A stretch of 64,000 bases of DNA, taken from positions 288,001-352,000 of the forward strand of contig CBFIDD010000002.1 of the NCBI GenBank assembly GCA_965661285.1, in the 5' to 3' direction. Positions 8,793 to 46,165 of the stretch are shown piece by piece. Numbering within the stretch: position 1 is the first letter of the stretch; each line of letters starts with the position of its first letter. The DNA is from Poseidonia sp. GTDB lineage: Archaea > Thermoplasmatota > Poseidoniia > Poseidoniales > Poseidoniaceae. The notes below the pieces were generated by a model. The model saw nothing but the letters and a program-made list of their open reading frames with translations, was not told where the DNA came from and searched no databases. Made by a program: the position numbers and the translations under genes.

Positions 8793-8874
8793 TGTTTCGT
8801 GCCTACGAAACCAAATTCCATACCTAACAAGGAATTAAGTAGAGCATCCGCAGAGCGGTGGTTGAGGAATCAAA

Positions 8875-9150: not shown

Positions 9151-9207
9151 ATTCACCGTTCATACGGGAAAGAACCAACCGTCTTAAGGGAGGGCGGTCA
9201 GGAAGGG

Positions 9208-10206: not shown

Positions 10207-10207
10207 A

Positions 10208-10441
10208 TCAATTCAACGGATCAGGGATCCCTTTCTCGCCCAGCGTCCATTTGAGCGTTTTCACAACGCCCTGCAAGGCTTTGTGGTTTCGAGCAGCCTC
10301 TTTCATACCCGCTTTATCGTCTTCGTCTTTGCACATCTCGTACCAGGCTTTCCACTCGTTCATTTTCGTGGTCGCTTGGTCAAGCATGTCCTCAATTTCG
10401 GCCCAGGTCCGGTCGTAGGTGCGTTCAGGCAATCCACTCAT
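10208..10441 (-). CDS. Small hypothetical helical protein
   Basis: 77-aa ORF filling the intergenic gap, with protein-like composition (ARNHKALQGVVKTLKWTLG). Confidence 0.7.
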   Translation of the reverse strand: MSGLPERTYDRTWAEIEDMLDQATTKMNEWKAWYEMCKDEDDKAGMKEAARNHKALQGVVKTLKWTLGEKGIPDPLN

Positions 10442-34462: not shown

Positions 34463-35661
34463 ATTTGAGAGAACACAACCAACGCTTGGAAAACAAACGC
34501 GAGGAAATCACGGCGTGGATGGCAAAAAAACGTGCTGAGGTCCCCATCCCAATCTATGGTAGCGTGGATGTACGCGACGCCGGTTGGAAAATCGGGGTTG
34601 TTGACGCGAATCACTTCCCGGCTGGATTTAACAACGTATCTGAAGAAAACCTGATTGAACTTGCGAACTTGTTCAAAGAGCACGTCCACCGTGTCAACCC
34701 CTCCTGTGCTTGGGTTCACATCTACCCTGAAAACCACACGCGAAACCCCGGTTATGTAGAAAACATTGCCAGTATTCAATCCATGATCGAGCATGCAGGA
34801 TTTACCTGCACCGTAGGTTCTCCTGACCTCAACGAATTCGATGCACTCAACGGATTGTCCGGCCCGTTGATGCTGCAAAGCGTCGAAGTGGATGACGAAG
34901 GAAAGCTGACGGTCGGGCAACAGAATCCGGACTTGATTTTACTCAACAACGATTTGACCGAAGGCATCATTCCAGGAATTCAAAGCACCAACATCACACC
35001 ACCACCTCACATGGGTTGGTATCGCCGACGCAAATCGCAACATTATGAGATGCTCAAGCCTTACGTCGAGGAAATGGCCGACCTTCTTTCCTTGGATCCG
35101 TGGCATTTGATGCCAGAGTGGTTTGTCTCTCAAGACAAATGTTTGATCGAAGATGCATGCAGGTTCAAACTTGCCGCTGAGATCGATGCCTTCCTTGACC
35201 GCCTGCGAGCGAAGTACGCGAGCCTCGGCATCGAGCGAGAACCCACGGTCGTGATGAAGAACGACAGCGGCACCTACGGCCTTGGCGTCATGATGTTAAC
35301 ATCCGGCGAGCAAATCCTCAATCTCTCGAAGCGAAAGGCGAACAAACTCCGTTATGCCAAAGGCGGTGCTGATGTTGAAAACTACCTCATCCAAGAAGGC
35401 ATACCGACCGCCCTTTCCACCGAGAACAACGAAACCCTCGAGCCTGTGGTCTATCTCGTGGATGGTGAGGCCGCCTCCTGGTTTTACCGCATCAATGCGA
35501 AAAAATCCGACATGGACAATCTCAACTCCCCCAGTTCTCGATTTGAGAATTACGAAGACAGCAAAAACCCGCACCTCGAAGAAGCACACGGGTGGCACGC
35601 CCTCGTCGCTGAATTGAGCATGCTCGCCATGGGGGCGGAAGCCAAAGCATCGGCCAACTAA
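34459..35661 (+). CDS. gshA: Glutamate--cysteine ligase, PF08886/GshA (ATP-grasp-like) family
   Basis: PIYGSVDVRDAGWKIGVVDANHFPAGFNN, PENHTRN, ILLNNDL, GTYGLGVM, IQEGI, EPVVY and NLNSP, matching the proteobacterial GshA family pattern. Confidence 0.85.
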   Translation: MNLREHNQRLENKREEITAWMAKKRAEVPIPIYGSVDVRDAGWKIGVVDANHFPAGFNNVSEENLIELANLFKEHVHRVNPSCAWVHIYPENHTRNPGYVENIASIQSMIEHAGFTCTVGSPDLNEFDALNGLSGPLMLQSVEVDDEGKLTVGQQNPDLILLNNDLTEGIIPGIQSTNITPPPHMGWYRRRKSQHYEMLKPYVEEMADLLSLDPWHLMPEWFVSQDKCLIEDACRFKLAAEIDAFLDRLRAKYASLGIEREPTVVMKNDSGTYGLGVMMLTSGEQILNLSKRKANKLRYAKGGADVENYLIQEGIPTALSTENNETLEPVVYLVDGEAASWFYRINAKKSDMDNLNSPSSRFENYEDSKNPHLEEAHGWHALVAELSMLAMGAEAKASAN

Positions 35662-35698: not shown

Positions 35699-36376
35699 AT
35701 GAGCCAGCGGGTTTGGTTGTACATCATGACCATCGCCGTTGGGCTGTGGATTTCTGCAACCGCTGCGGGAGGTCTTCTCCCTGATGCGCTGGCCGAATGG
35801 CCCGTGAACGTATGGTGCTGGGGCGTGTTTGCGTTTATTTTCAAAGGCGCCGACCAAAAGGAGCGCATTGAGATGGTCGCCGTCGTAGCGCTCGCAACGC
35901 CCATGGAACTGTTCTTCTCCGAGGTTTGGCTGGTCTACGAGTACCAACGCGAATTCATGCCGCTCTTTGTCCCAGCAGGCCACTATTTCCTCTTCGATCT
36001 GGGCCGGCGAGGAGCATCCCTGATGCGGGTTGAAATGGCCCTTCCGCTGCTCTTGCCCTTCGTCCCCCTCGTGGCCTACGGCGCATGGACGGGAGGTGAC
36101 ACCTCCGGGGTCGTCATGCTGCTCCTCGTCTTGGGATTCACCAAATGGGGACCCCAACCGCGACTGTATGCCGCCATGGCGTGGGCAGCCTTGGCCATGG
36201 AACTCTGGGGGACCTATCTCGGAAACTGGACGTGGGCCACCGACGTGCCTTGGACCAACTTGACAGCGTGGAATCCGCCACTCCTGGTGGGCGCCTTCTA
36301 CTGTTTTGGCGACCTCTTGGTTAACCTGTGCGTTGCTAAGTTTCAAGGGGAACCTACGTCCGAGGTTCTACCATGA
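35699..36376 (+). CDS. Hypothetical multi-pass membrane protein
   Basis: About six hydrophobic helices; ELWGTYLGNWTW...NPP motif. Confidence 0.75.
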   Translation: MSQRVWLYIMTIAVGLWISATAAGGLLPDALAEWPVNVWCWGVFAFIFKGADQKERIEMVAVVALATPMELFFSEVWLVYEYQREFMPLFVPAGHYFLFDLGRRGASLMRVEMALPLLLPFVPLVAYGAWTGGDTSGVVMLLLVLGFTKWGPQPRLYAAMAWAALAMELWGTYLGNWTWATDVPWTNLTAWNPPLLVGAFYCFGDLLVNLCVAKFQGEPTSEVLP

Positions 36377-36705
36377 CCGGCGCTGACGAGCTGCGCAAGC
36401 GCCGCGAGCAAGAGGCGCTTCGTATTCGTACGGCGCTGAACCGGCAGCGTGGCGAACAGCGTGCCAACACCAAGGGAGGCGAAGGAACCGTGGCCTTTGT
36501 TGAGGAACGCAAATGCATCGGTTGCGACCAGTGCACCATCGTCTGTGATGACGATGCGATTGAACTCTACTTCGTGGATGTCCGCAGCCCGCTGATGTCG
36601 GTGGAGAGCAACCGGAAGGCGAAGATCATTCGAGATGCGTGCACAGGATGCCGATTGTGTGTCCTCGCATGCCCAACCGATGCCATCACGATGATTGACC
36701 GATGA
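36373..36705 (+). CDS. 2x[4Fe-4S] ferredoxin-like protein
   Basis: CIGCDQCTIVC and CTGCRLCVLACP. Confidence 0.9.
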   Translation: MTGADELRKRREQEALRIRTALNRQRGEQRANTKGGEGTVAFVEERKCIGCDQCTIVCDDDAIELYFVDVRSPLMSVESNRKAKIIRDACTGCRLCVLACPTDAITMIDR

Positions 36706-36715
36706 GGTGAACCCC

Positions 36716-37003
36716 ATGTCAAAGAAAGGAAAAGATGCAACAGCCCAGCGATTTGGAGGCGAATTTGGCCCTTACAGGAAACCCGGCACGGAAGGCGTTT
36801 CGCTGTCGACCTTCAAGAACCTGGTATGGACTTCGAATATCGGAGGTTTGCTCCTCGTCGTGCTCGCTTTGGAACTGCTCTTTGTCCAGCAGCGATTCAT
36901 GTGGGGCTTCCTGTCCTTGGTCGCCGGTGTGGCCATCGCCCTGTTCCCGTCCAACTACGAAATCGTCGGGATGAGCGACGAGGACGAAGACGACGCATCG
37001 TGA
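36716..37003 (+). CDS. Small two-TM membrane protein
   Basis: SD-like GAGGTGA upstream of ATG 36716; two hydrophobic helices; acidic tail. Confidence 0.7.
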   Translation: MSKKGKDATAQRFGGEFGPYRKPGTEGVSLSTFKNLVWTSNIGGLLLVVLALELLFVQQRFMWGFLSLVAGVAIALFPSNYEIVGMSDEDEDDAS

Positions 37004-37018
37004 TGAGGCGTATCAATC

Positions 37019-37122
37019 GGTAGCGTCTGACAAGACCCACTGCAAGCCCTCTGATGAGGTCAAAACGAATCAGTGGGTTTGTGCATTGACCCTTTGATTC
37101 GTTAGTATAACCATTGAATCAG
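37019..37122 (-). repeat. Left copy of a 104-bp imperfect inverted repeat bounding the island
   Basis: Its reverse complement aligns without gaps to 40171-40274 at 84/104 identity (manual count). On the minus strand it begins 3 nt after the stop of the restriction gene. Confidence 0.92.
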
Positions 37123-37125
37123 CCT

Positions 37126-38313
37126 CTACTTTGCTTTTCGATCTGAATATGAACTCAACCATGCCTCATCAATCATTTCGTTAATCCAATATTTACTTCG
37201 TTTTATTATCGTCATGAGTTGCCTTCCATGTATTAACTTCAATGGATATCTTAGTTCATGAACCTCTTCTTGTGCTTGTTTTGAGAAAAATGAGGTGGTG
37301 ACATAAATCCCATATTCTCCTCTGTCGAGTCTTGCAACTAAGCGCGATAATTGAACGGGATTAATGTAGTTTGAACTGGCATACCTCTTCACCTCTCCTT
37401 TCAATTTAATCTCAAATCTGAATGGTTCATCAATCATCATTGAACCTATGAAATCAAATCCTCCGTCTCCACTATTCTTGGTTTTTTCTAGATTTTTGAA
37501 TAAAGTGCCTCCGACTTCAAGGAAAAGATCAACGATTATTTGTTCAAAGACATACGGGTTAATTTCATTCAAGCGTTCCAATGCCATCCATTCTGGAGAA
37601 TTGGTTGGTGGTAATTGATCTTCTTTTGTCAAAATTGAATCATTCCAAGCGGTAAGATATGAGTGGGCATTCCTTGATACGTATTCTCTCCAAGCAAGAG
37701 GAGATTTGTCCAGTCGGGAATCAAGTTCCTCATGCTTGCGCCAATTCGTCAACCAATCAATCGCAACCTGTGGGGTATTTAGAATTCGTAAAGTTGCTCT
37801 GTAATTCCTAACAGGTATGTCTCCATCCATGAACCACTCAACGTCTAATTTTTCTAGAATGCACAAACCGTTGAAGCGATTATATCCCGTTCTTTTTGTG
37901 AAATGGAGAATGAAGGAAGGTTGAGTTGAACCGTTGCGGAGGTTTTCATCGAGCGCCTTCAGTACTTTGTTTCCTTTGAAATCATCAAGAGACTTATCTG
38001 GGTCTGCAACTGAATCGCCCCAGTAATAAATTACACCATTGTGCTGGTCAACAATATCATCCCAAGGTTTAGGAGTATTCGTTTTACCTGAGTGAGTGAA
38101 CAAAAACACACCGTCAATTTGCTTCTTTCTTGATGAGTTTGGAGATTTCAATGCTCTAATGCCCCCTGCATTAGTCAACCCGGATTCAGGTAGGTTAACC
38201 CAACTCAGAAATTGGTCTTCCGGATCGTCTTTCCTTTTTGCGTCTCTGTACTCTTTGCCGACCTCAAAGAATTTCCCAGAGCCTGCTGTAATCCAGTTAT
38301 CTGAACCACTCAT
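37126..38313 (-). CDS. Modification-dependent (type IV) restriction endonuclease, AspBHI/MspJI-like SRA domain plus Mrr-type catalytic domain
   Basis: N-terminal PWDD..D..NGVIYYWGD, RFNGL and NYRATLRIL; C-terminal FE...DGGFD...EVKRY...SRLVARL..GIYVTTS (PD-(D/E)xK, Mrr-like). Confidence 0.82.
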   Translation of the reverse strand: MSGSDNWITAGSGKFFEVGKEYRDAKRKDDPEDQFLSWVNLPESGLTNAGGIRALKSPNSSRKKQIDGVFLFTHSGKTNTPKPWDDIVDQHNGVIYYWGDSVADPDKSLDDFKGNKVLKALDENLRNGSTQPSFILHFTKRTGYNRFNGLCILEKLDVEWFMDGDIPVRNYRATLRILNTPQVAIDWLTNWRKHEELDSRLDKSPLAWREYVSRNAHSYLTAWNDSILTKEDQLPPTNSPEWMALERLNEINPYVFEQIIVDLFLEVGGTLFKNLEKTKNSGDGGFDFIGSMMIDEPFRFEIKLKGEVKRYASSNYINPVQLSRLVARLDRGEYGIYVTTSFFSKQAQEEVHELRYPLKLIHGRQLMTIIKRSKYWINEMIDEAWLSSYSDRKAK

Positions 38314-38353
38314 GAATTCCCCTCAACTGTTGTGGTAATTGAAATTATCACAT

Positions 38354-38433
38354 TAATCAGAGGGTCACTCTGATTAGGCCTCAAAGCAGAGGGTACCCAC
38401 TGCTTACCCATCTGAGCAAAGGGCGCCCTCTGA
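38354..38433. repeat. Three tandem imperfect palindromes of the TCAGAGGG-N2-CCCTCTGA family, about 30-bp period
   Basis: TCAGAGGGTCACTCTGA (38357-38373), GCAGAGGGTACCCACTGC (38386-38403) and GCAAAGGGCGCCCTCTGA (38416-38433). TACCCACTGCTTACCCATCTGA resembles GACCCACTGCAAGCCCTCTGA in the terminal repeats. Confidence 0.8.
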
Positions 38434-38449
38434 AGAATAATTATCCAAC

Positions 38450-39100
38450 CTAGATCCAACCCTTAAGAATCGTGTGTATACCCGCTTTTAGTTCAACACT
38501 CATATCGAGGTTAAGAAACGTTAAGTCTGGGTGTTTAAGGGCAGATTTGGAAGGGCTTGAGGGGTTTGCCAGAGGATAAAGTCCCAAGGCGAAAGCCAAC
38601 ATCTGTCCAAATGCTTGAAGGGCATCTTCTAGTCTGGTAAAATGCCCGTTTCTCATTAATGCCTCTGCACCTCTCTGCATGAGTGAGAGTAGATTCAACT
38701 TATGTTCAATTAGCACTTCAACTGAAACCTCTCGTTCATACAATGCTGGAGTAAGTGAAAAAAGAGAAAGAAAGCGATATTCCTTGAGAAAGATTTTGGT
38801 GATGGCACTCGCAAACATATCTAAATCGCTTAATTCAAGTTTGGAATCTTCCTCTAATCCGAGAACTACGTCCTCAAAATCGCATAGATGAACATGAAGA
38901 AGCAACGATTGGATGTTCTCAAAATATCTGTAAATACCGCTCGGTGAAATTCCAACCGAGCTGGCAAGCGGACGCATTCGAAGATCCAGCGGGTCAGTTG
39001 TTTTGAGAAGCGTGCGGACGGCTTCAACAATCGCTCTTTTTCTGACTTCACGATGCTCAGTTGAACGAGCGCGTTGGAAGGGAATCTCTGGGCCAGTCAT
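38450..39100 (-). CDS. TetR/AcrR-family transcriptional regulator
   Basis: FQRARS..REVRKRAIVEA; HTH LASSVGISPSGIYRYFEN. Confidence 0.92.
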   Translation of the reverse strand: MTGPEIPFQRARSTEHREVRKRAIVEAVRTLLKTTDPLDLRMRPLASSVGISPSGIYRYFENIQSLLLHVHLCDFEDVVLGLEEDSKLELSDLDMFASAITKIFLKEYRFLSLFSLTPALYEREVSVEVLIEHKLNLLSLMQRGAEALMRNGHFTRLEDALQAFGQMLAFALGLYPLANPSSPSKSALKHPDLTFLNLDMSVELKAGIHTILKGWI

Positions 39101-39137
39101 GTGAATAACCCCTGCTCTGGGTGGAGGACACTTGAAC

Positions 39138-39160
39138 TTAACGGAACACTGTTTCGTTAA
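39138..39160. promoter_or_regulatory. Putative TetR operator overlapping a TATA-like box
   Basis: TTAACGGAACA-C-TGTTTCGTTAA (10/11-bp inverted repeat) between the divergent tetR and SDR genes, running into TTAAATATAT. Confidence 0.7.
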
Positions 39161-39190
39161 ATATATATGGAGGATTTGGTTCGGCGAATC

Positions 39191-40174
39191 ATGCCTCGTT
39201 CTCTCCGAATTGACCCAAGCCTTCGTAACATCGACCTCTCCGGAAAAAGATACGTCATCACCGGTGGCTCAAGCGGCTCAGGACAAGCCACGGTTGAATT
39301 CCTTGCAAAGCAGGGTGCCGAGGTGATCACCACGGGACGAGATCTGGCTCGTGGGCGTCAAAATTTTGAATCCCTACCGCTCGCTGTCCAGGGACGAATC
39401 ACACTCCTTCATCTTGATTTAGAAAACATGGAAAGTGTCGAAAAGTTTGCAGCTGAGGTAAACAAAAAGTGGCAGTCGTTTGATGCATTGGTCAACAATG
39501 CGGGAGGTGCCCTCACGAAAAACGGCACTTTCGAGCTAAACAGAAAAACATACGACAAACAATTTGTCGGCAACCATATAGGGGTATTCCACCTCAGTAA
39601 CTTACTTCTTCCCGGGCTTGAAGCCAATGATGGGGCTCGACTCATCAACGTCTCATCCGTCATGCACGACCAGGCGAAAGGTTTGCAGTCGACTCAGGCT
39701 CAGATACATTGGGATGACATCCATGCCCGCAAGCGCAAGTTCGATGGGTTTGACCAGTATGCTCAATCAAAACTCGCCAACCTCCTTCACGCAAAATCGC
39801 TGGCAAGGAAGTACGATAAAGACAACATTGCTGTTTTCCCCGTTCACCCAGGGACGATCAGCAAAGGCAGTCGTTTCGGCCGTTCGATGGGACCACTAAT
39901 GCGCGCAATGATGGTCCCTCTTAGCATCCTGATGGGACCTATCATGCGCCCCATCACGAAGGAAGACGGCGCTCAGACCACCCTCCACTGCCTGCTTTCC
40001 GAGGAAGCTCTGAACCACCACGGAGTGTATCACGCTCAAACCGGACTCAAACACAGCGACGGTGTTCGCGGGGGCTGGCCGTACCGGTCAGCCAATCCGT
40101 TGTCTCATGACGAAGCCGCTCAGGACCAATTGTGGAGCCTGAGTGAGGAACTTGTGGCAGAATTGAAAGCCTGA
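39191..40174 (+). CDS. Short-chain dehydrogenase/reductase (retinol dehydrogenase/WWOX-like)
   Basis: ITGGSSGSG, LVNNAG, NVSS, YAQSK and VHPG. Start is 39191 or 39167. Confidence 0.93.
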   Translation: MPRSLRIDPSLRNIDLSGKRYVITGGSSGSGQATVEFLAKQGAEVITTGRDLARGRQNFESLPLAVQGRITLLHLDLENMESVEKFAAEVNKKWQSFDALVNNAGGALTKNGTFELNRKTYDKQFVGNHIGVFHLSNLLLPGLEANDGARLINVSSVMHDQAKGLQSTQAQIHWDDIHARKRKFDGFDQYAQSKLANLLHAKSLARKYDKDNIAVFPVHPGTISKGSRFGRSMGPLMRAMMVPLSILMGPIMRPITKEDGAQTTLHCLLSEEALNHHGVYHAQTGLKHSDGVRGGWPYRSANPLSHDEAAQDQLWSLSEELVAELKA

Positions 40175-40274
40175 TTCAATCCACAATTCGTCGAATCATA
40201 GGGTCAAAGCACAAACTCACTGATTCGTTTTGACCCAATCAGAGGGCTTGCAGTGGGTCGAATCACTCGCTACC
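40171..40274 (+). repeat. Right copy of the 104-bp imperfect inverted repeat
   Basis: Begins at the SDR stop codon (cTGAttcaat); matches the reverse complement of 37019-37122. Confidence 0.92.
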
Positions 40275-40302
40275 CTGAGATTTGGCAACCCATCAGAGGG
40301 GC

Positions 40303-40322: not shown

Positions 40323-43133
40323 TCAAGCTTCTGCGGTCTCGCCAACGGTCGTTTCGGCACCGAGTTGGGCCTTCTGCTCGTTGACTTGGCGAGCGAGGAA
40401 GGACACGACGTCGAGGATCTCGATGTCAGCATAGGCTTCGTCGCCCTCGAACTTGAGGCACTCAAAGTGAGAAACACACTTTGGGCAGGAGGTCAACATG
40501 GTCTCAGCACCGGTTGCACGGACTTCTTCCATGCGTGTGACACGCAGGGAGCGGGCGTTCTCGTTGCAGGACATCATGCTCGAAACACCGCAGCACATGG
40601 CGTCTTCACCGCTGTGCTCCATCTCAACAATCTCAACACCATCAACAGCGTTGATGAGGTCGCGAGGCTCGTCGTAAATGCCCATCTGTCGACCGAGGCG
40701 GCACGGGTCGTGGTAGGTGACGGTGGTGTCTTCGGTCTTGAGGTTCATGTCAAAGCCTTGCTCGGTCAGGTATTCCGTGGTGTGCATGACCTTCACGTTT
40801 TCAAGTTCGTAATCACGGGCAAAGGTTCGGAAACACTCAGCACAGGACGAGACCAAGGTGTCAATGCCAGATTCGTTGATCTTGCGCTGGTTGTACGCCT
40901 TGAGCTTCTCAAAGACTTCATCCAGACCTTGCCACTTTTGGTCGTGGCCGCAGCACTTCAGGAAGTCACGGCCGAGGTAGGCCACGTCGGTGCCCATCTC
41001 CTCAAACAGGGTGAAGGCAGCCGTGGTTGTATCACCAAGGTTCATCGTGCCTTCGTTGACGTGGGAGAAGACCATCTCCTGGTCAAGGTAGTCAACGCAT
41101 CCAGGGTAGTATCCGACGTTGGAGGTGATGGGGTAGTCTTCGGTGGCGATGAAATCGTCATCGGCCGCTTCCTCAGCCTCAGCGTTGAGCACCGCTTGAA
41201 GGACGGTGTGCGGAATTTCTGCCTGCGGGCCGCCAACGATAAGCGAACGACGGATGTCAACGTAGGAGTCATAGTTGACGAGTTGAGGACAGGCGTTGGT
41301 GCATGCGGTACAGGTCAAACAGGAATACAGCGGGACGCCGTCGTCTTCGTTGTTCCACGAATTGTAAATGATGTTCAGTTTGTCGCCACCGTTGAACAAG
41401 CGGACCGGACAGGCGTCGTCGCACAGGTCGCAGCCGTAGCACTTGTTCATCTCGAACTCGTAGCCACGAGCCATGTAGCGCAACAGCACGAAGACCAGCG
41501 CACCGAAGGTGATGCATGGAATGAACATGGCGTAGGTCAATTTTGCGTCAAGGGACTTGGGGTTTTGGTGGTAAGTAGGGTTCTCGATGTACGAGAACGC
41601 CGAACCGCCCAGGGCCATCTCTTCGCTGTTGGTAAGGTTGACCGTGTGGCCGGCCAATGCTGCAGGAGCGCTCTCATCCCACACGAGCAAGGGCTGGTAG
41701 GTTGCGATCCTCATCGAGGTTTGCGTCGTGATGCTGTTGTTGAGCGCCAGCGCCCCGCTGACCACGACATCGTAGGTGTAGTCGTAGGTGCCAACGGACA
41801 TTTCGACGGTTGCACCCTCGCAGTTGGCGAAGGAAACCACTTCGCTACCCGTGGCGTCGGTGACGGTCAGCATGGTAGCGACCATGGTTTGGGTTGACAC
41901 ATCGTTGATTTTCCGTTCGCTGGAGCGGAACTCACACGCAAGGTCGGTGGTCAAGGTGGTGACCTCTTCGGGGTGTCCCTCGGGGAAGAGCGTGGTGTCT
42001 TCAGTGATGGTAAACGAACCGCTCACGCTGAAGCCATCCCCACCGTTGAACGTGGTTCCAGCCGCCGCTGCGTTGATGCCGTTTTCGGCGTCTTGATGCC
42101 CGTTCGCATCGTTGAAATCCGTGATGATGTAGCGGGCTGGCTGGTAGATGTTCCAGTTCAACCATGCCGTGGTTGGAACCACGCCTGAGTCGGACCACCC
42201 GCGGTCGTCGGTGAATTCATTCACGTCGTGAACATGAACATCGGAAGGCTGCGTTCGCATGGCCTCCAATTCGCCATAGTCCTTGATGGTCAGCAAACCT
42301 TTCGCATCCCAAAACCCTTTGTCGTAGGTGTCGAAGGTGGCCACGGTAGCGGCGGACGAGAGGATAAGCGCGCCGACGATGAGTTGGCGACTCTTGGCGA
42401 CCGTGAACCCTGCACCCCAGGCGCGGATGAGCAATCCTCTGCCGATGAAATAAATACATATCCACATCAGGACGCCTGTCATCACCCACGGTATCGCATT
42501 GAAGACTTCGGCTATCCACGGCTCCCGAGTTCCACAGAGGAGGTCGCCGTGGGAATCGAGTTTACAGAAATCGGACCGATTTTTCCCGTACAATTCCAGG
42601 AAGATGTTGATGGAAAACACCGAGATGAACCAGATGTGCGCAAGATAGACGGCACCGGCAGCTGCGAACCAAGGGTCCTCAACGGGTCGCTTCTCACGGC
42701 CACCAAGGAAAGGTGGCAAAGCGAGAATGCCCACGGGGATGCCGGTCAGCGCAGCGCCCCACCATGCAGCGTTCCAAGGGAACATGGGCTGGCCGACGAT
42801 ATCGCCGACGAAACCGGTGGGGACCACAAACTGGGGCAAGTATTCGCCCCAGCGGAGATACCCGTAGGAGAACAACACGTACCAGTCGGGGAACACGAAA
42901 CCGGCCTGTGCATACGGGTCGGCTGCGCCGTGCAGTGGTGGAGGAATCAGCCAGGCATAGAAGAGGAGGATGGAGAGCATCGAGGCGAAAATGATGCTAT
43001 CACGCAGCACTTCGTGCGGCCAGAAACCGTGGCCGGTTCGGGTTCGCTTACGCTTTTCCTCTGCTTTTTGCAGTTGCTCTTTCTCCTCCATATACATGGA
43101 GGCGACGCGTCCAAAATTGTCAATCAGTCCCAT
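40323..43133 (-). CDS. Cytochrome b6f subunit IV-like domain fused to an HdrD/GlpC-like 2x[4Fe-4S] + 2xCCG oxidoreductase module
   Basis: N-terminal FWPHE...ADP...FPDWY (PEWY variant) and TM helices; C-terminal CYGCDLCDDACP, CLTCTACTNACP, YYPGC, CCG, SCAEC, YHDPCRLGR, CCG and SCPKC. Confidence 0.88.
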   Translation of the reverse strand: MGLIDNFGRVASMYMEEKEQLQKAEEKRKRTRTGHGFWPHEVLRDSIIFASMLSILLFYAWLIPPPLHGAADPYAQAGFVFPDWYVLFSYGYLRWGEYLPQFVVPTGFVGDIVGQPMFPWNAAWWGAALTGIPVGILALPPFLGGREKRPVEDPWFAAAGAVYLAHIWFISVFSINIFLELYGKNRSDFCKLDSHGDLLCGTREPWIAEVFNAIPWVMTGVLMWICIYFIGRGLLIRAWGAGFTVAKSRQLIVGALILSSAATVATFDTYDKGFWDAKGLLTIKDYGELEAMRTQPSDVHVHDVNEFTDDRGWSDSGVVPTTAWLNWNIYQPARYIITDFNDANGHQDAENGINAAAAGTTFNGGDGFSVSGSFTITEDTTLFPEGHPEEVTTLTTDLACEFRSSERKINDVSTQTMVATMLTVTDATGSEVVSFANCEGATVEMSVGTYDYTYDVVVSGALALNNSITTQTSMRIATYQPLLVWDESAPAALAGHTVNLTNSEEMALGGSAFSYIENPTYHQNPKSLDAKLTYAMFIPCITFGALVFVLLRYMARGYEFEMNKCYGCDLCDDACPVRLFNGGDKLNIIYNSWNNEDDGVPLYSCLTCTACTNACPQLVNYDSYVDIRRSLIVGGPQAEIPHTVLQAVLNAEAEEAADDDFIATEDYPITSNVGYYPGCVDYLDQEMVFSHVNEGTMNLGDTTTAAFTLFEEMGTDVAYLGRDFLKCCGHDQKWQGLDEVFEKLKAYNQRKINESGIDTLVSSCAECFRTFARDYELENVKVMHTTEYLTEQGFDMNLKTEDTTVTYHDPCRLGRQMGIYDEPRDLINAVDGVEIVEMEHSGEDAMCCGVSSMMSCNENARSLRVTRMEEVRATGAETMLTSCPKCVSHFECLKFEGDEAYADIEILDVVSFLARQVNEQKAQLGAETTVGETAEA

Positions 43134-43148: not shown

Positions 43149-44015
43149 TCAATGCGGCTCCGCAATGCCTTGTACCCAAACGATGAACAGATGTATGATG
43201 ATGAGCGTGGTGACGATCACCGGCAGAATGAACACGTGAATGAAATACATTCGAGTGACCGTCAGCGGTGTGAGTTCAGAGCCCGAGAAGAGCAGGGTGG
43301 CGATGTACTTCCCAACCAGCGGGCTGGAGTTGGCGAGGTTGATCCCGATGATGGCCGCACCGTAAGCAAGGCTGTCCCACGGCAAGAGATAGCCGGAGTA
43401 GCCGAAGACGATGGTCAAGGCCATGAGGGCCACACCGATGAGCCAGTTCAGTTCACGTGGGTTTCGGTAGGCACCGGTGAAGTAGACACGGCACATGTGC
43501 AAGAACACGCTGGCGACCATGAAGTGGGTCGTCCAGTGGTGGACGGCACGCAGAATGTAGCCAAAGGGCAGTTGCGTCATGATGTACTGCATGCTTGCAT
43601 AAGCGGGTGATGGGTCGCCTTCGCCTCCGGGGACGTAGTAAATTCCGAGGACGGTTCCCGTGATCACGAGGATGATGAAGGAGAGGAAGGAGATACCGCC
43701 GAGACAGTACAGCGGGTACCAGTACCAGATGATGCGGAGTTTGTATTTCTCAGCGTGTGTCAACGGCATTTGTCGGTGCATGTTGTAGTAGGCACCTTTG
43801 GACATGTTCCAGTAGTCTTGGAGACGGAAGCGGGTGTCAAGCCAGGAGAAGACCCACAGGAACGACCGTTCCGCCACGCCCATCTTGCCGGACGACTCGA
43901 CCGCTCGCAGGATGTCTCTGCGAGGCATTTCCTCGTTTTCCTTGCGCAGCGTGAAGGCCACCAAGAGCACGAGGAAGGCGATGAAGAACCACAGAATCCA
44001 GAACATTGTCGTCAT
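43149..44015 (-). CDS. petB: Cytochrome b6 (split cytochrome b, N-terminal part)
   Basis: YCLGGI (Cys at the heme ci position), H-x13-H, PRELNW, GYLLPWD and H-x14-H. Confidence 0.92.
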   Translation of the reverse strand: MTTMFWILWFFIAFLVLLVAFTLRKENEEMPRRDILRAVESSGKMGVAERSFLWVFSWLDTRFRLQDYWNMSKGAYYNMHRQMPLTHAEKYKLRIIWYWYPLYCLGGISFLSFIILVITGTVLGIYYVPGGEGDPSPAYASMQYIMTQLPFGYILRAVHHWTTHFMVASVFLHMCRVYFTGAYRNPRELNWLIGVALMALTIVFGYSGYLLPWDSLAYGAAIIGINLANSSPLVGKYIATLLFSGSELTPLTVTRMYFIHVFILPVIVTTLIIIHLFIVWVQGIAEPH

Positions 44016-44024
44016 GTCAACACC

Positions 44025-44870
44025 TCAATCACAATACGTGTACCAGTCCACGTAGTCAGGCAGGCCTTCGATGACGCCGCCGTTGAGCTGAATCGGAATG
44101 ATGGGAAGACCCACAGGGGCAGGACCGCCCGCTCGGCGAATACCAGCATAGTTGAAGGTGGCACCGTTCGAACGGTTACGATTGGTGTTCATCTCCAAGG
44201 CCGTTGGGTCAAAGCGAGAGGAGTGGCAGATGCAGAACATCTTGGTGCCACCGTCGTCGCCGCCACCGGGCGTCCACGAGTCTTCGGTGAAGGAATTCGA
44301 GACGAGTTGCCATCCGGGGATACAACACAGGTGTGTGCAGCGACCGAAGGCCATCACGAGGTCGTCTGAAGGCATTAAACGAGGGTCGGCTTCAGCGAGG
44401 TCTTCGAAGTGACCGACGTATTTGCCAGTCTCGTCGTAGCCTTCCATGAACTGGAACCGAGCCTTACCGTTGGATTCGGGCGTGCCGGCATACTTGGAGT
44501 GAGCGACATAGTTCACAACGACGGGCACGCCGTTCCATACGCCCGCTGCACCGGCCGTGCCGGTCGAGGAGGAGGCAGCCTCGGCTTCAAAGTCCGCTTT
44601 GGTCATGGGCTGCAGGTGTTTGGCGCCGTACCATGCTTCATCTTCGCGGCCCTTGGCCCAAAATTGGACGGCCAAGTCGCCACCGCTGCCTCCGCCAGGT
44701 GGCAGAAGAATAGCAGCAAATCCGAGCATGCCAAGCGAAGCGGTGAGCACGCCCGCTGCGGTGTTGAAACCGTAGCGAAGGAACTGGCGTCGATTGATGG
44801 TGGTGGTGGAACCGCCCAGAGCATCGTCGCCGCTGGAAGGTGCAGGTTTGAGTTCGTATTCACGTGCCAT
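44025..44870 (-). CDS. petC: Rieske [2Fe-2S] protein of a cytochrome bc/b6f complex
   Basis: Tat motif NRRQFL; CTHLCC and CICHSSRFD; GGPAPVGLP. Confidence 0.92.
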   Translation of the reverse strand: MAREYELKPAPSSGDDALGGSTTTINRRQFLRYGFNTAAGVLTASLGMLGFAAILLPPGGGSGGDLAVQFWAKGREDEAWYGAKHLQPMTKADFEAEAASSSTGTAGAAGVWNGVPVVVNYVAHSKYAGTPESNGKARFQFMEGYDETGKYVGHFEDLAEADPRLMPSDDLVMAFGRCTHLCCIPGWQLVSNSFTEDSWTPGGGDDGGTKMFCICHSSRFDPTALEMNTNRNRSNGATFNYAGIRRAGGPAPVGLPIIPIQLNGGVIEGLPDYVDWYTYCD

Positions 44871-44876
44871 GCTGCA

Positions 44877-45323
44877 TCACCACTTGTACTCCCGCCAGTC
44901 TTTCTGGTGTTCTGGAATGAATTTGTTTTGAGCGTGCTTGACGATGATGGTGTCGGGAAGGATGAACTTCAGGTAGATGATGCCGATCATGATGAGCGTG
45001 GTCATGGTCATGGCGAGGTGGAAGGAGAGTTGTTGTTGGTCCCATCCCTTTGCAAGCCCGTAAATCATGGAGAAACTCCAGTAGCAGATCCAAAACAGGC
45101 CCCAGCCGAGGAAGAACATCGTGAGGTAGGATGCGCCGGAAGGTGCAAGCGAAGCGCTCACAATGGTGCCCGGCTCAGCGATGTTGAACACACCGTGGTC
45201 GATGGCACTCGCCATCTCGTCTTCGGTCAATTCTGTACCCTCGAGCGCCTTGCGGGCGTCGTCAACGTTGATGCTGCCGTCAGCAACACCTCGAAGCAGG
45301 GTCGTGATTGTATCGTCCATCAT
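44877..45323 (-). CDS. Hypothetical two-TM membrane protein in the Rieske/cytochrome b operon
   Basis: Translationally coupled within the operon; two hydrophobic helices. Confidence 0.72.
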   Translation of the reverse strand: MMDDTITTLLRGVADGSINVDDARKALEGTELTEDEMASAIDHGVFNIAEPGTIVSASLAPSGASYLTMFFLGWGLFWICYWSFSMIYGLAKGWDQQQLSFHLAMTMTTLIMIGIIYLKFILPDTIIVKHAQNKFIPEHQKDWREYKW

Positions 45324-46165
45324 TGATCACCTCGGCGCATGAGTTTGTATCGCAAGCGAAGCTGGTTGCTTCGTCCCTTGTACGATGTTGAAAAGCCGTA
45401 GCGAAGCAAAAGACCGGCGAAGATGACCACGCCAATGACCGCACCGAAGCCGAGAAGCCCCAGCCAGTGCGCACGGAGTTTCGCACCCATGTGATGCAGG
45501 TCAACGCCGTGGTGAGCAGGTTCGGGCGGGCTAACGTTTCCGTCGCCCGCAAACAAGGTACGAGTGCCCATGGCGGCAGAGGCTTCATCACCTTCGTTGA
45601 GCGCAAAGTTGAGTTGATTCCACCGGTCTTCGACACCGGGGATTTGGTCGCCGTTCACGGAGTTTCCAACGATCCAGAAGTTCACGGCGCCCGCACCGGA
45701 GTCAGCGGGTGCGGTCCAGTCAAAGACCCACGAGCGATCCTCGGTGGCAGCCGATGCCTCGGTGTGCGTCAGGGTTTGTTCGTCAAGCGTTCCGTCAATT
45801 TCCCAGTTTTGGGCAACGTCGCTGGCGAGGCTGCCGAGGGAGACACGCATGGAGAATCCTGCAGTGTAGGTGCCGGTGGCTGGAGGTCCGCCGATGAGTT
45901 GGAGATGGAGGGTGTAGGTTTCGCCGGGGACGTAGGCGAAGGGGACGTCGACGAGGATGACCTGGACCGCATTGTCGGCGACTTCGTTGTGGCAAAGACA
46001 ACCCGATTTTGCCACGTCGTCGATGTCGACCTGCCCCGTTGAGCCCTGGTGGGACTGAGGGCCACCGATGCCTCCGTGATAGGAGGAAGCGAGGGCGGGG
46101 AGGAGAAGCAAAACCCCAACGAGCGTAAGCAGCACGGTGCGGGACGTGAGAGAAGTTTTGTGCAT
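45320..46165 (-). CDS. Secreted Reeler/choice-of-anchor-V-like protein with CxCH motif and C-terminal TM anchor
   Basis: Signal peptide, SGCLCH, YVPGETY, LTH, FDWTAP, FWIVGNSVNGD, then a TM helix. Confidence 0.65.
   Translation of the reverse strand: MHKTSLTSRTVLLTLVGVLLLLPALASSYHGGIGGPQSHQGSTGQVDIDDVAKSGCLCHNEVADNAVQVILVDVPFAYVPGETYTLHLQLIGGPPATGTYTAGFSMRVSLGSLASDVAQNWEIDGTLDEQTLTHTEASAATEDRSWVFDWTAPADSGAGAVNFWIVGNSVNGDQIPGVEDRWNQLNFALNEGDEASAAMGTRTLFAGDGNVSPPEPAHHGVDLHHMGAKLRAHWLGLLGFGAVIGVVIFAGLLLRYGFSTSYKGRSNQLRLRYKLMRRGDQ

What the first reader, a model, noticed from the sequence alone, without database searches (positions are those of the whole stretch)
40323..43133. Cytochrome b6f subunit IV fused to a heterodisulfide-reductase-like (HdrD/GlpC) Fe-S/CCG module
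Seen: one uninterrupted 936-aa ORF with a subunit IV domain (PDWY), further TM helices, a long soluble beta-rich segment, a TM helix, two CxxCxxCxxxCP clusters and two CCG domains. Known: subunit IV is normally a small stand-alone protein or is fused to cytochrome c, while CCG domains carry the catalytic non-cubane clusters of HdrB/HdrD and also occur in GlpC/GlcF/LutA. Inference: a Rieske/cytochrome b complex with a built-in, probably cytoplasmic, redox module near the heme ci side, linking the Q-cycle to thiol/disulfide chemistry or a soluble dehydrogenase in a presumed aerobic heterotroph.
Basis: partly seen in the sequence, partly recalled or inferred. Interest (0 to 1): 0.72.

Follow-up and report, generated by a model that had tools for sequence, protein, structure and literature searches.

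The report
Complex III subunit fused to HdrD
In abundant ocean archaea (Marine Group II) one membrane subunit of the respiratory Rieske/cytochrome b complex is permanently fused to a cytoplasmic iron-sulfur module, which probably plugs a dedicated ferredoxin straight into the quinone cycle.

Summary
Window 40323-43133 (-) is one 936-aa ORF. It holds a cytochrome b C-terminal/subunit IV domain (PDWY), two more TM helices, a variable extracellular beta-rich domain, a return TM helix, then a cytoplasmic HdrD-type module (two CxxCxxCxxxCP motifs, two complete CCG motifs). It ends a tight five-gene operon with a Rieske protein and a cytochrome b6 that keeps four haem histidines and the haem ci cysteine.

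The fusion is no artefact. It was found in 41 of 41 related genomes. Shorter forms without the extracellular insert occur in other archaeal lineages, always beside cytochrome b6. A sister family splits the gene inside the HdrD part, not at the subunit IV junction.

The thiol/disulfide or dehydrogenase reading is not favoured. A 110-aa RnfB-like 2x[4Fe-4S] ferredoxin lies next to the gene throughout the order, co-directional and directly downstream in 15 genomes. A complex model docks it on the CCG face (0.81; best control 0.00).

Best reading: a cytoplasmic-side electron port joining ferredoxin-level electrons to haems bH/ci and the quinone site. The direction is inferred.

In print I found only one sentence, on another order. 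This scan has met the same design in other MGII genomes.

The parts
40323..43133 (-). P0001, 936 aa: subunit IV - insert - HdrD-type fusion protein.
   Evidence: It is conserved as one open frame in 41 of 41 related genomes.
42588..43133 (-). Residues 1-182: cytochrome b C-terminal / b6f subunit IV domain. It has an N-terminal cytoplasmic tail and three TM helices (E, F, G).
   Evidence: The family profile hits cytochrome b residues about 230-365 at E 6e-11 and subunit IV at 1.4e-7. Orthologues L023 and L084 hit PF00032 above the cut-off. Mean identity among 18 MGII homologues is 84% over residues 36-182.
42879..42890 (-). Qo motif PDWY (residues 82-85).
   Evidence: It is invariant in 17 of 17 sequences of alignment A2. 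It aligns on PEWY of subunit IV chain 7r0w_J.
41541..42587 (-). Residues 183-531: an insert that the shorter fusions lack. It consists of a p-side loop with invariant C190 and C200, two extra TM helices (213-236, 251-269) and a variable acidic extracellular domain (270-531).
   Evidence: It is absent from the 8 non-MGII sequences aligned in A2. Mean identity is 43%, against 83-84% in the flanking domains, and N-x-S/T sequon density is highest here. The AF2 model has mean pLDDT 50.5 with an eight-strand beta core. Fold matches were generic beta-sandwiches only.
41478..41540 (-). Residues 532-552: the return TM helix that brings the chain back to the cytoplasm.
   Evidence: Hydropathy 2.13, followed by RYMARGYE.
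41259..41465 (-). Residues 557-625: HdrC-like domain with two CxxCxxCxxxCP motifs, for two predicted cubane [4Fe-4S] clusters.
   Evidence: Pfam Fer4_8/9/10 at E 3e-7. All eight cysteines are invariant. The profile hits HdrC chain 5odc_C at 6e-10.
40821..41111 (-). First CCG domain (C679, C727-C728, C764, C767).
   Evidence: PF02754 match over the cut-off at window 40821-41030 (converted from genome coordinates). The cysteines are invariant in the 19 MGII sequences of A1.
40458..40721 (-). Second CCG domain (C811, C847-C848, C883, C886, plus invariant C856 and C892).
   Evidence: PF02754 over residues 805-890 and window 40464-40721. The profile hits HdrB chain 8rvv_B at 3.6e-8.
43149..44015 (-). 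P0002, cytochrome b6 (288 aa), with an N-terminal extension of about 100 aa that carries one extra TM helix.
   Evidence: PF00033 at E 1e-40. It matches 1vf5_A at 4e-43, with the cysteine of YCLGG aligned on the haem ci cysteine motif. The four haem histidines are kept in 19 of 19 associated b6 genes and the cysteine in 17 of 19.
44025..44870 (-). P0003, Rieske iron-sulfur protein (281 aa) with variant boxes CTHLCC and CICHSS.
   Evidence: TIGR01416 at E 1.3e-8, below the cut-off. It gave no Pfam hit. It holds the same operon position in 9 of 9 fetched MGII loci.
44877..45323 (-). P0004, small membrane protein (148 aa), DUF7318-like.
   Evidence: DUF7318 scores 18.2 bits here, below the cut-off. 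Counterparts in L022, L023 and L024 score 47-56 bits, above the cut-off.
45320..46165 (-). P0005 (281 aa): signal peptide, beta-sandwich domain with an invariant CxCH motif, and a C-terminal TM anchor. It is a candidate p-side electron acceptor of the complex.
   Evidence: NF041895 (choice-of-anchor V) at E 1.6e-25. C56, C58 and H59 are invariant in 10 of 10 sequences and are also present in the sister family.
36373..36705 (+). P0275, 110-aa 2x[4Fe-4S] ferredoxin with a basic N-terminal helix (RnfB-like). It is the proposed bound partner of the HdrD module.
   Evidence: rnfB TIGR01944 at E 8e-14, below the cut-off. It is adjacent to the fusion gene across the order. Complex model: 0.81, best control 0.00.
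36695..37003 (+). P0276, small protein (102 aa) with two hydrophobic stretches, seen by eye in the translation (no hydropathy scan was run). It always follows the ferredoxin gene.
   Evidence: It follows the ferredoxin gene in 9 of 9 fetched loci and in the window.

Best explanation
Shown by sequence:
- P0001 is the subunit IV (second half of cytochrome b) of the Rieske/cytochrome b6 complex of a Marine Group II archaeon (Poseidoniaceae by NCBI names of close homologues).
- Its C-terminus is extended by a cytoplasmic HdrD-type wire: two cubane [4Fe-4S] sites and two complete CCG sites.
- The first cubane site starts about 12 residues after the last TM helix, so it is held at the inner membrane face, next to the n-side haems of cytochrome b6.

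Inferred:
- The wire exchanges electrons with haem bH and haem ci.
- Its outer end, the CCG face, carries a dedicated 110-aa RnfB-like ferredoxin subunit.

Most likely mechanism (inferred):
1. Low-potential cytoplasmic electrons, such as those from 2-oxoacid:ferredoxin oxidoreductases, enter through the ferredoxin subunit.
2. They pass through the CCG clusters, the cubane clusters and haems ci/bH.
3. They reduce quinone at the n-side site, or they feed the b-haem chain directly.
4. They leave through the Qo site and the Rieske protein towards the oxidase, with Q-cycle proton translocation.

On this reading the complex is a ferredoxin:quinone reductase and a quinol oxidase in one.

The extracellular insert is lineage-specific and of unknown role.
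For: Architecture:
- Six TM segments place the N- and C-termini on the same side, and the charge pattern follows the positive-inside rule.
- The subunit IV core and the HdrD module are equally conserved, 84% and 83% mean identity, against 43% for the insert.

Real and old:
- 41 of 41 related genomes in three families carry it.
- In the phylum sample of 301 genomes it was found in family f1 41/41 and f3 22/22. Full-length short fusions occur in f23 (5 of 5), f31 and f25.
- Seven named archaeal MAG loci hold short fusions, each with a cytochrome b6 gene directly upstream.
- All 19 subunit-IV-fused modules form one clade in a quick tree (SH-aLRT 98, midpoint root).

haem side:
- The four b-haem histidines are kept in 19 of 19 associated b6 genes, and the haem ci cysteine (CxGG) in 17 of 19.

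Ferredoxin partner:
- The gene lies directly downstream on the same strand in 14 of 14 f3 genomes and 1 of 2 f2 genomes, with a 14-nt gap in several.
- In the window's own genus it is adjacent but convergent in 18 genomes. In 5 more genomes the two genes sit on different contigs.
- It is also directly downstream in L025, the nearest non-MGII relative. In the sister family it appears as a double ferredoxin.
- Complex model of residues 555-936 with the ferredoxin: score 0.81 in three runs, best of 3 controls 0.00. That mark was reached by 116 of 157 solved complexes and 2 of 215 mismatched pairs. The runs agree in at least 80% of contacts, and partner pLDDT is at least 77.
- The modelled interface joins the ferredoxin's N-terminal helix and first cluster loop to residues 641-723, 856-858 and 892-897, which flank both CCG motifs.

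Input direction:
- In 5 of 7 short-fusion loci the downstream genes are HdrA, MvhD, HdrBC or FrhB-like cytoplasmic modules.
- The genome has a 2-oxoacid:ferredoxin oxidoreductase, a haem-copper oxidase and cupredoxins.
- Solved EtfD, and EMO as described in a 2026 preprint, use the same cubane plus CCG wire to carry electrons from a cytoplasmic carrier to a membrane haem b and quinone (PMC13083937 abstract and section 8; preprint 10.64898/2026.08.18.745454 abstract and section 10).
- Diamond et al. 2022 (PMC9038741, passage read) proposed the same entry point for Ca. Angelarchaeales from neighbouring hdrD-like and rnfB-like genes.
Against: - Nothing here measures electron flow. Direction, redox potentials and cluster types are all inferred.
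- No three-dimensional model of the whole complex was made, so the haem-to-cluster distance is not known.
- The complex model is a confidence score, not a measurement. It used my own small alignments (19 and 12 rows).
- In the window's own family the ferredoxin gene is convergent with the fusion gene, not co-transcribed. In this window a low-GC 3.2-kb insert separates the two.
- Both CCG motifs keep all ten cysteines, as in catalytic HdrB/HdrD, whereas the electron-wire enzyme EtfD has a reduced first motif. This fits a catalytic disulfide site as well as a wire.
- Two of 19 associated cytochrome b6 genes lack the haem ci cysteine, so haem ci cannot be essential to the design everywhere.
Confidence: 0.5

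Rival explanations
1. Electron exit with bifurcation. Quinol is oxidised at Qo. One electron goes to the Rieske protein and the oxidase. The other is driven through bL and bH into the HdrD wire, where it reduces the bound ferredoxin. An aerobe would thus make low-potential reductant from quinol.
For: The architecture is the same as for the best explanation. The PDWY motif is correlated with low-potential quinones and low-potential Rieske proteins (PMC4122944, abstract and passages). For anammox Rieske/cytochrome b complexes, NAD(P)H generation has been proposed (PMC12954380; only the start of its abstract was seen, in a search listing).
Against: The genome already has a ferredoxin-reducing 2-oxoacid oxidoreductase, so a heterotroph has little obvious need for this. 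Reducing ferredoxin through b haems would need unusually low haem potentials. In other lineages the attached modules are donors of the HdrA type.
Confidence: 0.15
2. Thiol/disulfide enzyme. The two CCG clusters form a catalytic HdrB/HdrD-like site. This site reduces a cytoplasmic disulfide, or oxidises a thiol such as gamma-glutamylcysteine, using electrons exchanged with the b haems.
For: Both CCG motifs are complete and invariant. The module is 41% identical to an HdrD-like protein of Ca. Methanoperedens and is sister to that group in the tree. A glutamate-cysteine ligase gene (PF08886, E 4e-101) lies two to three genes away in the window and in 5 of 9 fetched MGII loci.
Against: The modelled ferredoxin covers the face next to both CCG motifs. 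The related Methanosarcinales proteins are soluble and sit upstream of hdrCBA; they are not the HdrD of HdrDE, and their substrate is unknown. The gshA synteny is missing in 4 of 9 fetched loci. EtfD and EMO show that CCG clusters can serve as plain wires.
Confidence: 0.15
3. Docking site for a flavoprotein or soluble dehydrogenase. The module would act as in EtfD/EMO, GlpC or LutA, accepting electrons from ETF during fatty-acid and amino-acid oxidation.
For: The best solved match of the module is M. smegmatis EtfD, chain 9ojn_A, E 1.8e-39. The genome has etfAB and no canonical ETF-QO domain.
Against: The genome encodes a separate 688-aa protein with five TM helices, a cubane domain and a reduced first CCG motif (GCSGD). 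That is the EtfD layout. It is only about 31% identical to P0001 and lies far away in the tree. etfAB are on another contig. No dehydrogenase gene is conserved beside the operon.
Confidence: 0.07
4. Assembly artefact or decaying relic without function.
For: None was found. In one search five listed matches, in five genomes (G025, G027, G030, G037, G040), carry one stop flagged by the tool.
Against: The same open frame occurs in 41 of 41 genomes from many assemblies. One search listed 120 protein clusters, most of 915-942 aa; four (701-718 aa) are shorter or partial. The module is 83% identical across the order. My own translation of the loci behind three flagged rows (L011, L013, L018) found no internal stop in two and only the natural end in the third. 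The other two flagged rows were not inspected.
Confidence: 0.02

Closest known systems
Cytochrome b6f and Firmicute-type b6 Rieske/cytochrome b complexes (split cytochrome b6 plus subunit IV, haem ci)
   Same: A four-helix b6 with four haem histidines and the CxGG cysteine. A separate subunit IV gene directly downstream with a P[ED]WY Qo motif. A Rieske gene in the same operon.
   Different: Subunit IV here carries a 750-residue extension, made of 3 more TM helices, an extracellular domain and an HdrD-type module. No cytochrome f or c1 gene is present; a CxCH beta-sandwich protein and a DUF7318 protein stand in the operon instead.
HdrD of membrane-bound heterodisulfide reductase HdrDE, and the soluble HdrD-like proteins encoded upstream of hdrCBA in Methanosarcinales and Ca. 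Methanoperedens
   Same: Two cubane motifs plus two complete CCG motifs in one chain. It is 41% identical to the Methanoperedens protein over residues 562-917 and sister to that group in the tree.
   Different: The membrane partner is subunit IV/cytochrome b6 of a Q-cycle complex, not the NarI-like HdrE. The organism is an aerobic heterotroph according to the literature (PMC6336850), and neither HdrA nor MvhD was found in its genome. The substrate is unknown.
EtfD (M. smegmatis, PDB 9ojn) and EMO (Syntrophus): ETF:menaquinone oxidoreductases
   Same: A cytoplasmic wire of CCG clusters and two cubane clusters, ending at a membrane haem b next to a quinone site. It is the best solved sequence match (E 1.8e-39). 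This is what P0001 most likely works like.
   Different: EtfD has its own five-helix haem b domain and a four-cysteine first CCG site with a linear [3Fe-4S] cluster (PMC13083937, section 8). P0001 has neither. The genome has a separate EtfD-like paralogue.
Complex III locus of Ca. Angelarchaeales with neighbouring hdrD-like and rnfB-like genes (Diamond et al. 2022, PMC9038741)
   Same: A cytochrome b complex III cluster with an hdrD-like and an rnfB-like gene. The authors' one-sentence idea is that complex III may be an entry point for reduced ferredoxin (passage read).
   Different: The passages I read do not say that the hdrD-like gene is fused to subunit IV. Nothing there concerns MGII, haem ci, the insert or the distribution. 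I did not check whether my Thermoplasmata loci belong to that order.
Cytochrome b proteins fused to cytoplasmic redox domains: the PDWF-FeS clade (Kao and Hunte 2014, PMC4122944) and the anammox Rieske/cytochrome b complexes
   Same: The whole cytochrome b, Qo motif included, is joined to 4Fe-4S, MvhD or flavin domains (passage read). For anammox complexes an n-side NAD(P)H link has been proposed (search listing only).
   Different: The PDWF-FeS proteins are bacterial, and no Rieske ISP is found in their QcrABC cluster. Neither group carries a CCG module, and the anammox partners are separate subunits.

Membership tests
Cytochrome b C-terminal domain / b6f subunit IV (PF00032) | Significant sequence match to the family. 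| tested here: met
   P0001 alone gave no Pfam hit at E<=10 and only E 0.21 to chain 7r0w_J. The profile of 17 family members scored E 6e-11 to cytochrome b residues about 230-365 and 1.4e-7 to subunit IV chain 2e74_B. Orthologues L023 and L084 pass the PF00032 cut-off.
Cytochrome b C-terminal domain / b6f subunit IV (PF00032) | Qo motif P-[ED]-W-Y in the loop after the first helix. | tested here: met
   PDWY at residues 82-85 is invariant in 17 of 17 sequences and aligns on PEWY.
Cytochrome b C-terminal domain / b6f subunit IV (PF00032) | Three TM helices starting from a cytoplasmic N-terminus. | tested here: met
   Hydropathy segments at 46-66, 122-144 and 161-179, with a basic N-terminal tail and a basic loop at 145-160. 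This rests on hydropathy only; no dedicated topology predictor was available.
Cytochrome b C-terminal domain / b6f subunit IV (PF00032) | Encoded next to a four-helix cytochrome b6 and a Rieske protein. | tested here: met
   The b6 gene is directly upstream in 9 of 9 MGII loci and 7 of 7 short-fusion loci.
Cytochrome b C-terminal domain / b6f subunit IV (PF00032) | Small stand-alone protein of about 160 aa. | tested here: not met
   The protein is 936 aa, and the domain occupies only the first 182 residues or so.
HdrD (subunit of HdrDE heterodisulfide reductase) | Two CxxCxxCxxxCP motifs followed by two CCG domains with the full five-cysteine pattern. | tested here: met
   The spacing is C-x47-CC-x35-CxxC and C-x35-CC-x34-CxxC.
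HdrD (subunit of HdrDE heterodisulfide reductase) | Partner is the NarI-like dihaem cytochrome b HdrE. | tested here: not met
   The module is covalently joined to subunit IV of a Rieske/b6 complex. The only other CCG protein in the genome is the 688-aa paralogue.
HdrD (subunit of HdrDE heterodisulfide reductase) | Reduces CoM-S-S-CoB in a methanogen or methanotroph. | not testable with these tools
Neither HdrA nor MvhD was found in a 93% complete genome. CoM and CoB biosynthesis genes were not searched for.
EtfD / EMO (ETF:menaquinone oxidoreductase) | Its own five-helix haem b membrane domain ahead of the Fe-S module. | tested here: not met
   The N-terminus is a subunit IV domain. No haem-ligand search was made in P0001 itself. 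The 688-aa paralogue has the five-helix layout.
EtfD / EMO (ETF:menaquinone oxidoreductase) | First CCG site reduced, with four cysteines in M. smegmatis EtfD. | tested here: not met
   P0001 keeps CC in both motifs. The paralogue has GCSGD in the first motif. The EtfD ligands are taken from PMC13083937, section 8.
Rieske/cytochrome b complexes with an n-side redox module | A cytoplasmic redox-cofactor module physically attached to the cytochrome b core of a complex that also has a Rieske protein. | tested here: met
   The Rieske gene is in the operon.

The most novel reading that the evidence does not exclude
The complex is a quinone-based electron-bifurcating machine. Oxygen-driven oxidation of quinol at Qo pushes the second electron through haems bL, bH and ci and the HdrD wire onto the bound ferredoxin. 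One of the most abundant aerobic archaea of the ocean would thus make ferredoxin-level reductant directly from its respiratory chain. Run in the other direction, the same device would be a natural, hard-wired version of the long-postulated ferredoxin to haem ci to quinone route of cyclic electron flow in b6f complexes (that postulate is recalled, not taken from any call).
Probability: 0.15. Interest if true: 0.9.

Novelty: new variant of a known kind. Interest (0 to 1): 0.72.

Why it matters
**Abundance and the open gap.** Marine Group II archaea are among the most abundant planktonic archaea. Their "complex III" has been called MGII-specific and left unexplained, and an orphan "RnfB" was noted as a puzzle (Tully 2019, PMC6336850, passages read). 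The ferredoxin here matches the rnfB model only below its cut-off, and I did not check that it is the protein Tully called RnfB. If it is, this locus joins the two observations into one device: a Rieske/cytochrome b6 complex with a built-in four-cluster arm and its own ferredoxin on the cytoplasmic side.

**If ferredoxin feeds the Q cycle.**
- Each ferredoxin electron would be worth Q-cycle proton translocation, without complex I. That changes energy budgets for these heterotrophs.
- It would also give an experimental handle on an old question: what the extra haem ci of b6-type complexes is for, and whether ferredoxin can reduce quinone through it. Here the partner would be bound, not transient.

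**Distribution.** The same fusion beside HdrA/MvhD genes in other archaeal MAGs suggests a wider, unstudied family that couples flavin-based and quinone-based electron splitting.

Tried and rejected
- **Pfam on the N-terminus.** Pfam and single-sequence PDB searches of the N-terminal 270 residues gave nothing significant. A family profile was needed.
- **Cluster members.** The listing of cluster members, tried for the taxonomy of the short fusions, was switched off.
- **RNA evidence.** No RNA holder was listed, so no reads were laid.
- **Extracellular insert.** The AF2 model has mean pLDDT 50.5. Foldseek gave only generic beta-sandwich and jelly-roll matches such as GOLD domains, carbohydrate-binding modules and capsid proteins, with TM-score under 0.3 on the query. 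No function is assigned.
- **P0005.** The model has mean pLDDT 61. Foldseek gave reeler and cohesin-like sandwiches, plus weak full-length matches to cytochrome f chains (E 3e-4, TM 0.28, rmsd 18 A). This is a lead only.
- **The 688-aa paralogue.** Its neighbours are a DNA glycosylase, a GHMP kinase and TBP. They say nothing about its role.
- **Tree.** The careful tree did not finish in 300 s, so only the quick tree is reported.
- **ETF docking.** Considered as the main role and rejected because the genome has a better EtfD candidate.
- **Literature.** Eight searches found no paper describing the subunit IV-HdrD fusion. Methanoperedens (PMC4683180), Yaplasmales (PMC9239135), Lutacidiplasmatales (PMC9287336), an Asgard preprint (10.1101/2024.07.04.601786) and Dibrova 2017 (PMC5600118) were checked by passage and do not mention it.
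- **Closed supplements.** The supplements of the EMO preprint, which hold its domain phylogeny, are closed and could bear on whether this clade was seen.

Full report
**1. Observation**

The window holds a single 936-aa ORF on the minus strand at 40323-43133. It is the last gene of a tightly packed five-gene operon running from 46165 to 40323, with gaps of -4 to 15 nt:

| Gene | Size | Identity |
|---|---|---|
| P0005 | 281 aa | signal peptide, "choice-of-anchor V" domain, C-terminal TM anchor |
| P0004 | 148 aa | small membrane protein, weakly DUF7318 |
| P0003 | 281 aa | Rieske protein |
| P0002 | 288 aa | cytochrome b6 |
| P0001 | 936 aa | the fusion protein |

**2. Domains**

*Cytochrome b6.* It matches solved cytochrome b6 at E 4e-43. 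The cysteine of YCLGG aligns on the haem ci cysteine, and all four haem histidines are present.

*N-terminus of P0001.*
- Alone, it is not recognised by Pfam, even at E<=10, and reaches only E 0.21 against subunit IV chains.
- A profile of 17 family members settles it. Positions 18-151 match the C-terminal half of bacterial cytochrome b at E 6e-11 and b6f subunit IV at E 1.4e-7.
- Two shorter orthologues exceed the PF00032 cut-off.

*C-terminus.* The same profile matches M. smegmatis EtfD (9ojn_A, E 1.8e-39), HdrC (6e-10) and HdrB (3.6e-8). The best NCBIfam hit is TfrB, far below its cut-off.

**3. Topology**

Hydropathy gives six TM segments. The basic N-terminal tail, the basic loops at 145-160 and 237-250, and RYMARGYE after the last helix all lie on one side. 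The PDWY loop and the acidic 262-residue segment (270-531) lie on the other.

Subunit IV starts in the cytoplasm; that is established knowledge of b6f structures, recalled here. The Fe-S/CCG module is therefore cytoplasmic, and the first cluster motif begins about 12 residues after the membrane.

The middle segment has the highest N-x-S/T density: 0.91 per 100 aa, against 0.14-0.25 elsewhere. It is modelled at low confidence as a beta sandwich, with only generic fold matches.

**4. The fusion is real**

- A word-indexed search found 469 proteins at E<=0.001 among 8000 scored candidates.
- The 120 listed all carry CCG plus Fer4 Pfam domains. Most are 915-942 aa. NCBI names them Candidatus Poseidoniaceae, Thalassarchaeaceae or Euryarchaeota. 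One partial protein is labelled Flavobacteriales.
- In whole genomes, 41 of 41 relatives have it: f1 24/24, f2 2/2 and f3 14/14, plus the window's own genome.
- Complete copies are single open frames of about 930-967 aa, and 1339 aa in f2. Some rows are cut by contig ends. Five rows carry one stop flagged by the tool.
- I retranslated three of the loci behind flagged rows. Two had no internal stop, and one had only its natural end.
- The whole five-gene operon is conserved in 9 of 9 fetched loci.
- Within 18 MGII homologues, mean identity is 84% in the subunit IV core, 83% in the HdrD module and 43% in the insert.

**5. Beyond MGII**

*Shorter fusions.* The exhaustive representative search found fusions of 543-789 aa without the insert. 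In alignment they have helices E, F and G, one more TM helix, and then GYEYxLNxCYxC. The MGII form therefore arose by insertion of a two-cysteine loop, two TM helices and the extracellular domain.

*Named genomes.*
- 7 of 79 loci hold near full-length short fusions: four Thermoplasmata MAGs, one labelled Bathyarchaeia, one Ca. Geothermarchaeales and one "uncultured archaeon".
- The other 72 match only the HdrD part.
- Most of those 72 are from Ca. Methanoperedens, ANME-2 and other Methanosarcinales, at 38-50% identity to the short fusion P0132, which headed the query alignment.

*Gene context.*
- All 7 short-fusion loci have a cytochrome b6 gene directly upstream.
- P0001 residues 562-917 are 41% identical to the Methanoperedens protein.
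- That protein, and two Methanosarcinaceae counterparts, sit upstream of genes sized like hdrC and hdrB. The family assignment was confirmed by Pfam only in the Methanoperedens locus, which also carries an HdrA-like gene. They are therefore not next to an hdrE-like gene.

*Phylum sample of 301 genomes.*
- MGII families were 41/41 and 22/22.
- Full-length short fusions occurred in f23 (5 of 5), f31 (1) and f25.
- 372 weaker rows were not listed, so these are lower bounds.

*Sister family f4.* It is in the same class, with 8 of 8 genomes matching. In the one locus I fetched the gene order is a P0005-like gene, a P0004-like gene, Rieske, b6, subunit IV plus the two-cluster domain, a separate two-CCG protein, and then a 282-aa double ferredoxin. 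The split lies inside the HdrD part, so the subunit IV-FeS junction is kept.

*Tree.* In a quick tree all 19 subunit-IV-fused modules form one clade (SH-aLRT 98). That clade is sister to the Methanosarcinales HdrD-like proteins (87). The genome's own 688-aa paralogue lies far outside. The root is a midpoint and the careful search did not finish.

**6. Partner**

*Gene order.*
- Downstream of the fusion gene in f3 and f2 lie a 110-aa 2x[4Fe-4S] ferredoxin and a 102-aa protein with two hydrophobic stretches (read by eye from the translation), on the same strand.
- Comparing, the ferredoxin is directly downstream and co-directional in 14 of 14 f3 genomes and in 1 of 2 f2 genomes. The other f2 genome is fragmented and gave no match.
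- In the window's own genus it is adjacent but convergent in 18 genomes, and on another contig in 5.
- In this window a low-GC stretch separates them (GC 0.47-0.49 at 36-40 kb, against about 0.56).
- The ferredoxin is also directly downstream in L025, the closest non-MGII relative.

*Identity.* Its best NCBIfam match is rnfB, below the cut-off. This fits the orphan "RnfB" that Tully 2019 reported for MGII.

*Complex model.*
- The model of residues 555-936 with the ferredoxin scored 0.81 in all three runs, with the best of 3 controls at 0.00.
- That mark was reached by 116 of 157 solved complexes and 2 of 215 mismatched pairs.
- The runs agree in at least 80% of contacts, and partner pLDDT is at least 77.
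- The basic N-terminal helix of the ferredoxin lies on residues 641-723, which include an invariant acidic stretch.
- Its first cluster loop touches residues 856-858 and 892-897, beside both CCG motifs.
- The model supports binding but does not show it.

**7. Other lineages and the rest of the genome**

*Downstream of the short fusions.*
- In 5 of 7 short-fusion loci the downstream genes are of HdrA/MvhD type:
  - L020: hdrC, hdrB, a 1010-aa HdrA and MvhD.
  - L022, L023, L084: HdrA-like, Fer4 or MvhD proteins.
  - L024: an FrhB-like protein, a 1024-aa HdrA and a further HdrD-like protein.
- One contig is too short to tell.
- The ferredoxin of MGII resembles the C-terminal ferredoxin domain of those HdrA proteins.

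*The window's own genome (93% complete).*
- No MvhD and no HdrA were found.
- CCG domains occur only in P0001 and in a 688-aa protein.
- That protein has five TM helices and a reduced first CCG motif, which is the EtfD layout.
- etfAB are present and no ETF-QO domain was found.
- Also present: a 2-oxoacid:ferredoxin oxidoreductase, a haem-copper oxidase, two cytochrome c assembly-family genes and two cupredoxins.

**8. Reading**

*Shown.* The fusion, its topology by hydropathy, its conservation, the b6-type partner with the haem ci cysteine in 17 of 19 cases, and the conserved neighbouring ferredoxin.

*Inferred.* The module exchanges electrons with the n-side haems, and the ferredoxin is its bound outer subunit. 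I also infer that electrons flow inward, from ferredoxin-level donors to the quinone site and on through the Q cycle. Three things favour the inward direction:
- The solved EtfD and the EMO preprint (PMC13083937; preprint 10.64898/2026.08.18.745454).
- The donor-type HdrA modules in other lineages.
- The organism's ferredoxin-producing catabolism.

*Rivals still open.* Outward bifurcation to ferredoxin, and a catalytic disulfide site. For the disulfide site, all ten CCG cysteines are kept, and gshA is nearby in 6 of 10 loci.

**9. Literature**

| Source | What it says | What I read |
|---|---|---|
| Tully 2019 | MGII have a cytochrome b and a Rieske protein but no canonical bc1; also notes an orphan RnfB | passages, |
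| Diamond 2022 | One sentence on Ca. Angelarchaeales: an hdrD-like and an rnfB-like gene beside complex III may make it an entry point for reduced ferredoxin | passage, |
| Kao and Hunte 2014 | Bacterial cytochromes b fused to 4Fe-4S, MvhD or flavin domains; PDWY linked to low-potential quinones | |

I found no description of the subunit IV-HdrD fusion, its insert, its split form or its distribution in eight searches.

Notes of this scan show that other agents met the same design in other MGII genomes and read it similarly. I had reached the ferredoxin reading before seeing them. One of those notes made me look for the passing mention in print.

**10. Verdict**

This is a genuine, conserved and almost undescribed variant of the Rieske/cytochrome b complex. 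It combines two known kinds, a b6f-type core and an HdrD/EtfD-type wire, in a new way.

Noticed in passing
window 45320-46165 (-): P0005 has a signal peptide, a beta-sandwich domain and a C-terminal TM anchor, the layout of cytochrome f or c1. It carries an invariant G-C-x-C-H motif (10 of 10 sequences, and also in the sister family), plus invariant M106, H134, H224 and H233. It may be the p-side acceptor of the Rieske protein, perhaps with an unusual haem or metal site. Fold matches to cytochrome f are weak.
   Followed up: partly
window 44877-45323 (-); L022:1451-1972, L023:50-532, L024:123-575: A small DUF7318 membrane protein precedes the Rieske gene in MGII and in three of the short-fusion loci from other archaeal lineages. 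DUF7318 may therefore be a subunit of archaeal Rieske/cytochrome b complexes.
   Followed up: partly
window 34459-35661 (+): A glutamate-cysteine ligase gene (PF08886, E 4e-101; TIGR02049 just under the cut-off) lies near the ferredoxin gene. It is syntenic in 5 of 9 fetched MGII loci. This suggests gamma-glutamylcysteine as a low-molecular-weight thiol in MGII.
   Followed up: partly
window about 37000-40300: A low-GC stretch (0.47-0.49, against about 0.56) separates the ferredoxin genes from the fusion gene. Only an SDR-family gene at 39167-40174 was scanned here.
   Followed up: no
G000:C1, L101:982-3048 (-): A 688-aa protein with five TM helices, two cubane motifs and two CCG domains, the first reduced to GCSGD. 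This is the layout of mycobacterial EtfD. It is the likely ETF:quinone oxidoreductase of this genome, which has etfAB but no ETF-QO domain.
   Followed up: partly
L107 (sister family f4): 7708-8691, 8814-9581, 9584-10432: A natural split form: subunit IV plus the two-cluster domain as one gene, a separate two-CCG protein, then a 282-aa double ferredoxin. There is no extracellular insert.
   Followed up: partly
L022:2364-4322, L084:4092-5942, L023:1169-3802, L025:30-1892: When called from the first start codon, the cytochrome b6 ORFs of other lineages carry N-terminal cupredoxin domains (L022, L084) or Big_5 Ig-like domains (L023, L025). The true starts were not checked. In MGII, b6 instead has a 100-residue extension with one TM helix.
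   Followed up: no
L020:3729-12487: One uncultured archaeon has a multihaem cytochrome c, Rieske, b6, the subunit IV-HdrD fusion, hdrC, hdrB, a 1010-aa HdrA and mvhD in a row. From the HdrD-like gene onward this is the same order as in Ca. Methanoperedens (L041).
   Followed up: partly
window 44025-44870 (-): The Rieske protein has variant cluster boxes (CTHLCC and CICHSS). It is missed by Pfam and is detected only by TIGR01416, below the cut-off.
   Followed up: no
protein P0060: A 701-aa partial copy, 87% identical, is labelled Flavobacteriales bacterium at NCBI. This is probably a binning error.
   Followed up: no
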